Shown: piece by piece, positions 56,484 through 56,617 of the stretch | How the letters are laid out: the number at the start of each line of letters is the position of its first letter | Position numbering within the stretch: the stretch's first letter is position 1 | NCBI RefSeq assembly: GCF_044324785.1 | Contig: NZ_CP172127.1 | Source of the DNA: Escherichia coli | Lineage (GTDB): Bacteria > Pseudomonadota > Gammaproteobacteria > Enterobacterales > Enterobacteriaceae | Strand: one strand, 5' to 3' | Length of the DNA: 64,000 nucleotides | Translations under genes and position numbers: made by a program | Notes under the pieces: generated by a model | What the model was told of the DNA's origin: nothing | Seen by the model: the letters and a program-made list of their open reading frames with translations, nothing else | Database searches by the model: none

Positions 56484-56617
56484 CTGCTTAATTTGATGCC
56501 TGGCAGTTTATGGCGGGCGTCCTGCCCGCCACCCTCCGGGCCGTTGCTTCGCAACGTTCAAATCCGCTCCCGGCGGATTTGTCCTACTCAGGAGAGCGTT
56601 CACCGACAAACAACAGA

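What the first reader, a model, noticed from the sequence alone, without database searches (positions are those of the whole stretch)
56484..56617. Partial 5S-like segment between the T1 and T2 terminators
Between the two terminator hairpins the minus strand reads ...ggatttgaacgttgcgaagcaacggcccggagggtggcgggcaggacgcccgccataaactgccaggcatcaaattaagc, which ends in a copy of the 5S rRNA 3' end (ctgccaggcat). It is the same arrangement as the widely used rrnB T1-T2 cassette but with a different T2 stem. Minor, but it explains the spurious 150-aa ORF 56370..56822.
Basis: partly seen in the sequence, partly recalled or inferred. Interest (0 to 1): 0.15.

Follow-up and report, generated by a model that had tools for sequence, protein, structure and literature searches.

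The report
Known rrB-type sRNA between rRNA terminators
The stretch between the two terminators after the 5S rRNA gene is a near-identical copy of the published E. coli small-RNA gene rrB, a "tRNA-linked repeat" that ends in an 18-base copy of the 5S 3' end; it is not a decayed 5S gene and is ordinary.

Summary
On the minus strand the window reads 5S rRNA (56664-56783), T1 hairpin (56617-56660), a structured segment, an exact 18-nt copy of the 5S 3' end plus trailer (56491-56508; first copy 56659-56676), then the T2 hairpin (56455-56485).

Similarity to 5S stops at that terminal block. The Rfam 5S model finds nothing in the segment, and the body aligns to 5S no better than shuffled sequence.

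The segment is the known sRNA gene of the rrA/rrB/rrF family (Stenum et al. 2021, PMC8144298), a member of the tRNA-linked repeats (TLRs). The predicted 173-nt RNA (56488-56660) is 171/173 identical to K-12 rrB and keeps all five GGA motifs. A covariance model built only from tRNA-linked TLR cores hits the window once, at 56517-56559 (E = 3e-7).

Two things are specific to this window:
- The operon is rrnE (purH-rrnE-yjaB-metA), which has no TLR in K-12.
- T2 is the native rrnE terminator and resembles T1, so the direct repeat is 53 nt at 89% identity. Only 15 of 5,426 complete E. coli genomes carry this junction.

The 150-aa ORF exists and is antisense to these RNA features. Already known; low interest.

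The parts
56664..56783 (-). 5S rRNA gene of the rrnE operon (mature 120 nt)
   Evidence: Rfam RF00001 at 56666-56781, 92.8 bits. The ends were read from the sequence. The operon is set in purH-rrnE-yjaB-metA-aceB.
56659..56676 (-). First copy of the 18-nt repeat AACTGCCAGGCATCAAAT: the last 13 nt of 5S plus 5 nt of trailer. It contains the RNase E site 3 nt after the 5S 3' end.
   Evidence: Direct repeat D1. The RNase E site and the RrB 5' end are taken from PMC8144298.
56617..56660 (-). Terminator T1 (long hairpin plus T run)
   Evidence: Terminator scan, 20 pairs, and MFE fold. It differs from K-12 rrnB T1 only by one compensatory G:C to A:T pair.
56488..56660 (-). Predicted 173-nt RrB-type sRNA (long form), running from the RNase E site after 5S to 3 nt past the second 18-nt repeat
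   Evidence: 171/173 identical to K-12 rrB, 170/173 to rrA, 168/173 to rrF. The end positions are transferred from the S1 mapping in PMC8144298 and are inferred for this window.
56501..56604 (-). Equivalent of the EcoGene-annotated rrB / TLR body (GGTGAACGC...AAACTGCCA), holding the three conserved stem-loops and five GGA motifs
   Evidence: The 101-nt core is identical to K-12 rrB and rrA. Five GGA motifs are present. The hairpins appear in the MFE fold. The coordinate transfer from the rrB deletion coordinates in the paper's supplement is my inference.
56517..56559 (-). Conserved TLR core (hairpin CGTTGC-GAA-GCAACG, GCCC-GGA-GGGT, start of hairpin 3) shared with tRNA-linked repeats
   Evidence: Covariance model R1, built only from K-12 tRNA-linked TLR cores, gives 25.1 bits and E=3e-7. 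This is the only significant hit in the 64-kb window. Pairwise against the tyrT repeat it scores 40, reached by 0 of 2000 shuffles.
56491..56508 (-). Second copy of the 18-nt repeat (the TLR hallmark)
   Evidence: An 18-19 bp 3'-end identity is the defining TLR feature (PMC8144298).
56455..56485 (-). Terminator T2: the native rrnE terminator, with a T1-like stem GGCCCGGTC/GACTGGGCC plus TTTTT
   Evidence: MFE fold and inverted repeat I3. The same terminator follows 5S directly in strain EC21, which lacks T1 and the TLR.
56401..56443 (-). REP-like palindromic element between T2 and the yjaB stop codon
   Evidence: Weak naRNA4/REP model hits covering 56404-56463 (-) and 56404-56443 (+). It aligns with the REP after K-12 rrnA T2.
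56370..56822 (+). 150-aa ORF antisense to the REP-like element, T2, the TLR, T1 and 5S; spurious
   Evidence: ORF list. No Pfam family matches. RefSeq annotates no CDS at the homologous site in N3 or SE11.

Best explanation
The segment is a copy of the known rrA/rrB/rrF small-RNA gene, a 5S-linked member of the tRNA-linked repeat (TLR) family, sitting at the end of the rrnE operon.

Mechanism, transferred from K-12 experiments:
1. rRNA transcription mostly stops at T1. About 13% reads through and stops at T2.
2. RNase E cuts 3 nt after the 5S 3' end, and again after the identical 18-nt copy. This releases a ~173-nt RNA, which is trimmed to ~115 nt.
3. That RNA folds into three stem-loops presenting GGA motifs. 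It binds CsrA and, more weakly, Hfq. It is short-lived, so its level tracks rRNA transcription.

The 18-nt copy serves as the 3' processing signal and also pairs with a U/G-rich strand just after T1 to close the fold.

What is shown here: identity, anatomy, family membership and structure conservation. What is inferred: expression, processing and protein binding in this strain.

Evolutionarily, the unit T1 + body + 18-nt repeat (168 bp) behaves as one insertion/deletion block placed in front of the locus's own terminator.
For: - Identity: 171/173 nt to K-12 rrB, with the 101-nt core identical and all five GGA motifs kept. The only two differences form one compensatory pair in T1.
- Family membership: the 18-nt terminal repeat; a covariance model made only from tRNA-linked TLR cores finds it at E=3e-7; the core GAACGTTGC..GCAACGGCCCGRAGGGTG is shared with the tyrT repeat.
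- Structure: the region folds at -112 kcal/mol, z = -9.7. In 5S-linked relatives from 11 genera, hairpins 1 and 3 keep pairing while their stems are replaced. Hairpin 3 has 5 of 7 pairs changed on both sides, with 98.8% of cells paired.
- All 28 loci found in other species with the 20-nt core probe lie directly 3' of a 5S gene.
- Published experiments on the K-12 copies cover northern blots, S1 and RACE end mapping, Hfq pull-down, CsrA MS2 pull-down and EMSA with GGA mutants, and a half-life of ~2.5 min (PMC8144298).
- Block behaviour: EC21 and SE11/N3/window differ at rrnE exactly by the 168-bp unit bounded by the 18-nt repeat.
Against: - No expression data exist for this strain or for the rrnE copy.
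- In K-12, both deletion and overexpression give only modest and oddly concordant CsrA phenotypes, so the physiological role is unsettled.
- The element is dispensable. The body is detectable in only 4095 of 5426 complete E. coli genomes, with a median of 2 copies, and the rrnE locus is polymorphic for it.
- The related 'type B' copies carry 0-2 GGA motifs against 4-5 in type A. CsrA binding therefore cannot be the ancestral reason the fold is conserved.
- The Rfam RtT model scores the window copy at only 17 bits, E=0.66.
Confidence: 0.9

Rival explanations
1. It is a decayed second 5S gene, or a tandem partial duplication of 5S: a pseudogene remnant with no function of its own.
For: - The 18-nt exact copy of the 5S 3' end plus trailer.
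- GAGTAGGAC upstream of the core resembles 5S GAGAGTAGGGAAC. In type B relatives the match lengthens to GAGAGTAGG.
- The strand after T1, TGTTTGTCGGT, matches the 5S 5' end TGCCTGGCGGC at 8 of 11 positions and pairs with the 3' copy like helix I (my reading).
- K-12 rrnD really does carry two full 5S genes.
Against: - The Rfam 5S model gives no hit at E<=10.
- The body aligns to 5S no better than shuffles.
- The ~65-nt core is homologous to repeats that follow tRNA genes, where the flanks mimic the tRNA instead. The 5S-like bits are therefore host-specific flanks, not the origin of the body.
- Resemblance of the 5' strand to the 5S 5' end follows automatically from its complementarity to the copied 3' end.
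- Stems are conserved through compensatory change, which a decaying pseudogene would not show.
Confidence: 0.06
2. It is a termination and processing spacer only. The hairpins and the second terminator exist to make rRNA operon termination tight and to block 3' exonucleases. The RNA released is a by-product without a trans-acting role.
For: - T1 is leaky (87%) and T2 tight (100%) in K-12 (citing Orosz 1991).
- Phenotypes of the triple deletion are weak.
- The element is missing from many genomes and operons.
- Every hairpin has a stable GNRA/GAA-type loop.
Against: - The fold and the core sequence are conserved across Enterobacterales and in tRNA operons, including positions with no terminator nearby: type B copies lie between 5S and tRNA-Asp or tRNA-Thr.
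- Specific, GGA-dependent CsrA binding was measured.
- A bare backup terminator would not need a 100-nt body identical across operons.
Confidence: 0.2
3. It is a small non-autonomous insertion unit. T1 + body + 18-nt repeat entered the 3' end of 5S the way integrative elements enter tRNA 3' ends: it supplied a new gene 3' end and terminator and displaced the native 3' end and terminator (T2) downstream. It then spread between stable-RNA operons.
For: - The unit is bounded by 18-nt direct repeats. T1 and the body are nearly identical across rrnA, B, D and E, while T2 is locus-specific.
- There is a clean presence/absence polymorphism at rrnE.
- The same core occurs behind different host genes, each time inside a copy of that host's 3' part: the tRNA copy is split in the T loop and the 5S copy near loop A.
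- The serX and proK arrays show the same gene-terminator-TLR-copy-terminator layout.
Against: - No integrase or transposase is associated with it.
- Gene conversion between rrn operons, together with deletion or unequal crossing-over between the 18-nt repeats, explains the same pattern without any mobility.
- Compensatory stem evolution points to selection on the RNA rather than on recombination sites.
- Copy number is low and confined to stable-RNA operons.
Confidence: 0.12

Closest known systems
rrB (with rrA, rrF): sRNA genes between T1 and T2 of E. coli K-12 rrnB, rrnA and rrnD (Stenum et al. 2021, Front Microbiol 12:625585, PMC8144298)
   Same: - Position after 5S and between two terminators.
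- 171/173 nt identity, with an identical 101-nt core.
- The 18-nt 5S 3'-end repeat, spaced 168 nt start to start.
- Five GGA motifs and three stem-loops.
   Different: - It sits in rrnE, which in K-12 has one unrelated terminator followed by yjaA and no TLR.
- T2 is the rrnE terminator with a T1-like stem, which makes the repeat 53 nt long.
- This junction occurs in only 15 of 5,426 complete E. coli genomes.
tRNA-linked repeats (TLRs; Egan and Landy 1978, Rudd 1999), including the tyrT-operon RtT repeat / rttR (Rfam RF00391)
   Same: - The conserved core RACGTTGC-loop-GCAACGGCCCGNAGGGYG followed by a further hairpin.
- A 3' end copying 18-19 nt of the upstream stable-RNA gene.
- A 5' strand that pairs with that copy.
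- The layout gene-terminator-repeat-copy-terminator, as at serX and proK.
   Different: - The host is 5S rRNA, so the flanks mimic 5S rather than a tRNA T arm and acceptor.
- Hairpins 1 and 3 carry GGA loops.
- The Rfam RtT model scores it far below threshold (17 bits against 45).
- According to the paper, only the three 5S-linked TLRs are predicted to bind CsrA.
Type B 5S-linked TLRs found here in other Enterobacterales and in rrnH of some E. coli (L009, L016 and others)
   Same: The same core, the same 18-nt 5S 3'-end copy, and three hairpins at the same positions.
   Different: - No T1, so they are co-transcribed between 5S and tRNA-Asp or tRNA-Thr.
- Different stems in hairpins 1 and 3.
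- An extra hairpin CACTACTC/GAGAGTAGG and a closing helix GGCAGTT/AACTGCC.
- 0-2 GGA motifs.
Second 5S gene of rrnD (rrfD-thrV-rrfF)
   Same: Additional 5S-derived sequence distal to the first 5S gene. The rrnD TLR copy even shares the rrfF G-to-A variant CCAGACAT.
   Different: rrfF is a complete 120-nt 5S gene recognised by Rfam-type models. The window segment holds only 13 nt of 5S.

Membership tests
tRNA-linked repeats (TLR) | Lies in a tRNA or rRNA operon immediately downstream of a stable-RNA gene | tested here: met
   It starts right after 5S in a 16S-tRNA-23S-5S operon.
tRNA-linked repeats (TLR) | 18-19 bp at its 3' end identical to the 3' end of the upstream gene (PMC8144298) | tested here: met
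   18 nt exact, at 56491-56508 and 56659-56676.
tRNA-linked repeats (TLR) | Shares the conserved TLR core sequence and structure with repeats behind tRNA genes | tested here: met
   Model R1, built from Tyr, Pro, Arg and Lys TLR cores only, hits 56517-56559(-) at 25.1 bits, E=3e-7, with no other hit below E=1 in 64 kb. The pairwise score is 40, reached by 0 of 2000 shuffles.
RrA/RrB/RrF sRNA genes | Located between terminators T1 and T2 distal to 5S | tested here: met
   T1 at 56617-56660. The T2 hairpin plus T run is at 56455-56485.
RrA/RrB/RrF sRNA genes | More than 98% sequence identity among members | tested here: met
   171/173 to rrB, 170/173 to rrA, 168/173 to rrF.
RrA/RrB/RrF sRNA genes | Five GGA motifs, two of them in hairpin loops (CsrA sites) | tested here: met
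   GGA occurs at positions 77, 91, 96, 124 and 139 of the 173-nt form. The loops CGGGA and AGGAC appear in the fold.
RrA/RrB/RrF sRNA genes | Transcribed by T1 read-through, cut by RNase E to 173 and ~115 nt, binds Hfq and CsrA | not testable with these tools
   Known only from K-12 experiments.
5S rRNA (Rfam RF00001), applied to the segment 56484-56617 | Match to the 5S covariance model | tested here: not met
   No 5S hit in 56380-56665 at E<=10.
5S rRNA (Rfam RF00001), applied to the segment 56484-56617 | Sequence similarity beyond the terminal block | tested here: not met
   The body against 5S scores 14, and 1541 of 2000 shuffles score as high.
Rfam RtT (RF00391) | Score at or above the gathering threshold of 45 bits | tested here: not met
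   17 bits, E=0.66, partial model match 42-89 in the window. Type B relatives score 24-30.5 bits over the full model length.
Intrinsic terminator (T2) | GC-rich hairpin immediately followed by a U tract | tested here: inconclusive
   An 11-nt-arm hairpin, 91% complementary, is followed by TTTTT. It is not listed by the consensus scan. The same hairpin is the sole terminator after 5S in strain EC21.

The most novel reading that the evidence does not exclude
TLRs, including this one, may be discrete insertion units rather than simple duplications. A conserved ~65-nt structured core sits inside a copy of the host gene's 3' part: the tRNA copy is split in the T loop and the 5S copy near loop A. 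The unit brings its own terminator (T1) and displaces the native 3' end and terminator (T2) downstream, which is the topology of an element integrated at a stable-RNA 3' end.

On this reading the rare rrnE allele in this window, whose T2 is nearly the same hairpin as T1, would be either a recent gain of such a unit or the locus where the T1-bearing unit first formed.
Probability: 0.12. Interest if true: 0.45.

Novelty: already known. Interest (0 to 1): 0.1.

Why it matters
It matters little for discovery. The element is a published sRNA gene and part of the most widely used cloning terminator cassette.

The check is still useful in three ways:
- It corrects the label. This is a TLR-family sRNA gene, not a 5S remnant.
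- It shows that some E. coli carry a further copy of this sRNA gene in rrnE, a locus where K-12 has none.
- It shows that the T1 + sRNA block is a presence/absence polymorphism in front of each locus's own terminator. That bears on the old question of why some rRNA operons have two terminators.

Tried and rejected
- Whole-segment homology to 5S: rejected. The Rfam 5S model gave no hit, and the shuffle test on the body was negative.
- Reading the body as a tRNA remnant. Rfam's tRNA model matched only the 16S-23S spacer tRNA in the window, and no tRNA match came up in 56380-56665 at E<=10. No T-loop motif was seen by eye. Dropped once the TLR link was found.
- Rfam at permissive threshold on the window segment gave only chance-level hits: BTnc231, MicC, RefA9 and similar, all driven by the terminator hairpins. 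The weak RtT hit (17 bits) was the one real lead.
- MAFFT alignment of type A with type B copies (A1) put hairpin 1 out of register. I therefore did not use it for pair counts. Hairpins were parsed by anchors instead, and only hairpin 3 was counted formally.
- Counting how many genomes have the TLR at rrnE from coverage or identity bands alone was ambiguous. It was resolved by listing the best 60 records.
- A first literature search on rrnB terminator terms returned nothing relevant. Two searches failed on term length.
- The exact ends of RrB-short could not be recovered from the paper's text.

Full report
**What is in the window.** The minus strand from 61.7 kb down to 56.4 kb carries a complete rRNA operon:
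- 16S at 60136-61677
- one spacer tRNA at 59978-60050
- 23S at 56877-59781
- 5S at 56666-56781 by the Rfam model; read from the sequence, the mature 120-nt gene is 56664-56783

The flanking ORFs are purH (62295-63884, +), yjaB (55927-56370, +), metA (54841-55770, -) and aceB. This is therefore the rrnE position of Escherichia coli. The closest complete genome is strain N3.

**Checking the observation.** Downstream of 5S the minus strand reads, in order:
- a long hairpin with a T run, T1, at 56617-56660
- an exact 18-nt copy of AACTGCCAGGCATCAAAT at 56491-56508 (original at 56659-56676)
- a second hairpin, GGCCCGGTC-GGAA-GACTGGGCC, plus TTTTT, T2, at 56455-56485
- a REP-like palindrome
- the yjaB stop codon

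In this window it extends to a 53-nt direct repeat at 89% identity, spaced 168 nt apart, because the T2 hairpin resembles T1. A local alignment of 5S plus trailer against the segment scores 38, which none of 3000 dinucleotide shuffles reaches. The 150-aa ORF at 56370-56822 (+) exists. It is antisense to all of these RNA features, has no Pfam match, and is not annotated in N3 or SE11.

**Is it 5S-like?** Only at its end.
- With the 18-nt block removed, the remaining ~109 nt align to 5S no better than chance. The best match is the 7-mer GAGTAGG, and 1541 of 2000 shuffles score as high.
- The Rfam 5S model finds nothing in 56380-56665 even at E<=10.
- Two smaller resemblances exist. GAGTAGGAC recalls 5S GAGAGTAGGGAAC. 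The strand after T1, TGTTTGTCGGT, matches the 5S 5' end at 8 of 11 positions and pairs with the 3' copy in the predicted fold.

Both resemblances are what one expects of flanks shaped to pair with, or copy, the host RNA's end. Neither is evidence that the body descends from 5S.

**What it is.** Comparison with the seven K-12 operons gives this picture:

| K-12 operon | What follows 5S |
|---|---|
| rrnB, rrnA, rrnD (after rrfF) | the same T1-segment-T2 layout |
| rrnG | 5S joined directly to a T2-type terminator |
| rrnC, rrnH | distal tRNAs |
| rrnE | a single unrelated terminator, then yjaA |

A literature search found that the T1-T2 segment is a described gene family: rrA, rrB and rrF (Stenum et al. 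2021, PMC8144298). These belong to the tRNA-linked repeats (TLRs; Egan and Landy 1978, Rudd 1999; 22 copies at ten K-12 loci). The TLR hallmark is an 18-19 bp 3' end identical to the 3' end of the upstream tRNA or rRNA gene.

Transferring the mapped ends from that paper, the 173-nt RNA corresponds to window 56488-56660. It is 171/173 identical to rrB, and the 101-nt core is identical. The two differences are the two halves of one base pair in the lower T1 stem, G:C to A:T, a variant also present in K-12 rrnD. All five GGA motifs are retained.

**Independent tests of family membership.**
- I fetched five K-12 TLR loci behind tRNA genes: tyrT/V, serX, proK, argVYZQ and the lys/val operon.
- Those behind tRNA-Tyr, -Pro, -Arg and -Lys share the core RACGTTGC-loop-GCAACGGCCCGNAGGGYG plus a further hairpin, followed by the host tRNA's 3' part from the T loop to CCA. 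The serX repeats keep the same layout, but this stretch of their core is diverged, so they were not used for the model.
- A covariance model built only from the Tyr, Pro, Arg and Lys cores finds one significant hit in the whole window: 56517-56559(-), 25.1 bits, E = 3e-7, over the full model length.
- The Rfam RtT family, which represents the tyrT copies, scores the window at only 17 bits. It scores more divergent 5S-linked relatives at up to 30.5 bits over its full length.

**Relatives and structure.** A scan of one genome per species with the 20-nt core returned 28 loci. They come from Escherichia, Citrobacter, Enterobacter, Kluyvera, Raoultella, Buttiauxella, Atlantibacter, Pseudocitrobacter, Superficieibacter, Serratia and Leminorella, and every one lies directly 3' of a 5S gene. 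They fall into two types.
- Type A is the window's form: T1, then the body, then the 18-nt copy, then a locus-specific T2.
- Type B has no T1 and lies between 5S and tRNA-Asp, or tRNA-Thr plus a second 5S, or a terminator. It also occurs in rrnH of some E. coli.

Hairpins 1 and 3 occupy the same positions in both types but have entirely different stems. For hairpin 3, 5 of 7 pairs change on both sides and 98.8% of cells are paired; slid controls pair only 38-51%. Only about three independent stem types underlie this count, so it is supportive rather than decisive. It agrees with the LocARNA result in the paper. Type A copies carry 4-5 GGA motifs and type B copies 0-2.

**How it most likely works.** The steps below are established experimentally for K-12 rrA, rrB and rrF and are inferred for this copy because the sequence is nearly identical.
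- T1 stops most rRNA transcription (87%). The rest continues to T2 (100%).
- RNase E cuts 3 nt after the 5S 3' end. The authors propose that it also cuts after the second 18-nt copy.
- This yields a 173-nt RNA that is shortened to ~115 nt.
- The RNA binds CsrA through its GGA motifs (Kd around 100 nM, lost in a 3xGGA mutant) and binds Hfq weakly.
- Its half-life is about 2.5 min, so its level follows rRNA promoter activity.
- Phenotypes of deletion or overexpression are modest. Its physiological role remains open.

**What is particular to this window.** T2 here is not the rrnB T2. It is the native terminator of yjaA-less rrnE loci. Strain EC21 has 5S followed directly by this terminator, a REP and yjaB. 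SE11, N3 and the window differ from EC21 exactly by the 168-bp unit (T1 + body + 18-nt repeat) bounded by the repeat. T1 and the body are almost invariant among operons, whereas T2 is locus-specific. The TLR-to-T2 junction of this window occurs at >=98% identity over its full length in only 15 of 5,426 complete E. coli genomes. The TLR body itself is detectable in 4,095 of them, with a median of two copies. The block is therefore dispensable and moves, or is lost, as a unit. Gene conversion between rrn operons, together with deletion between the 18-nt repeats, is the simplest explanation. A true insertion mechanism is not excluded but has no positive support.

**Verdict.**
- The label should change: it is a known TLR-family sRNA gene (rrB-type) in the rrnE operon, not a partial 5S gene.
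- Novelty: already known.
- Interest: low.

Noticed in passing
L009 525-690, L016, L010, L012, L018-L023, L025-L028, L030, L033-L035: A second form of the 5S-linked TLR ('type B'). It has no T1 and lies between 5S and tRNA-Asp, or tRNA-Thr plus a second 5S. Hairpins 1 and 3 have different stems, and there is an extra hairpin CACTACTC/GAGAGTAGG and a closing helix GGCAGTT/AACTGCC. It carries only 0-2 GGA motifs. It is present in rrnH of some E. coli and in many Enterobacterales genera, so it would be made at full rRNA stoichiometry.
   Followed up: partly
L038, L041, L042, L043, L044 (K-12 tyrT/V, serX, proK, argVYZQ, lys/val operons): The Tyr, Pro, Arg and Lys TLRs share one core placed inside a copy of the host gene's 3' part; the serX copies have the same layout with a diverged core. 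The long forms (Tyr, Pro, Ser) read ...GGTTCGA | core | ATCC...CCA, which is the host T arm split in the T loop, and a 5' strand pairs with the 3' copy like an acceptor/T minihelix. The 5S version is analogous: GAGAGTAGG(G)A | core | AACTGCCAGGCAT.
   Followed up: partly
L005 (K-12 rrnG distal region, 2725400-2726200) compared with window 56300-56400: Downstream of the K-12 rrnG terminator and REP lies a fragment homologous to the 3' end of yjaB (CCCACATATGCCAGATTCAGCAACGGATACGG...). It looks like a relic of an rrnE-type flank next to rrnG, near the annotated small ORF yfiS.
   Followed up: no
L008 (K-12 rrnD) and L015 (Citrobacter): The G-to-A variant CCAGACAT occurs both in the 3' end of the second 5S gene (rrfF) and in the 18-nt copy at the end of the TLR. 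The repeat is therefore kept identical to its own upstream gene, by local conversion or by selection.
   Followed up: no
window 56371-56663 compared with L001 (K-12 rrnE): yjaA is absent from this window. K-12 has 5S, a different terminator, yjaA and then yjaB. At least three alleles of the rrnE distal region exist in E. coli: K-12 type, EC21 type and SE11/N3/window type.
   Followed up: partly
E. coli genome collection: The 106-nt TLR body matched 4,095 of 5,426 complete genomes. About a quarter of genomes therefore have no detectable 5S-linked TLR of either type at E<=0.01. There were also 41 matches on plasmids.
   Followed up: no
L022 114-205, L025 47-149, L033 51-151, L012 351-437: Rfam family AaHKsRNA22 (Aggregatibacter sRNA 22, RF02902) almost reaches its threshold on type B TLRs (34.7 bits against 39.8) over its full length. 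That sRNA family is probably a Pasteurellaceae relative of the TLRs.
   Followed up: no
window 56401-56443 and 19122-19192: A REP-like palindrome lies between T2 and yjaB (weak naRNA4 model hit). A full naRNA4/REP325-type match lies at 19122-19192(-).
   Followed up: no
window 30566-30762 (+), 28523-28671 (+), 59789-59897 (-): A lysine riboswitch (presumably the lysC leader), the STnc430 sRNA, and StyR-44 between the spacer tRNA and the 5' end of 23S. All are above Rfam gathering scores.
   Followed up: no
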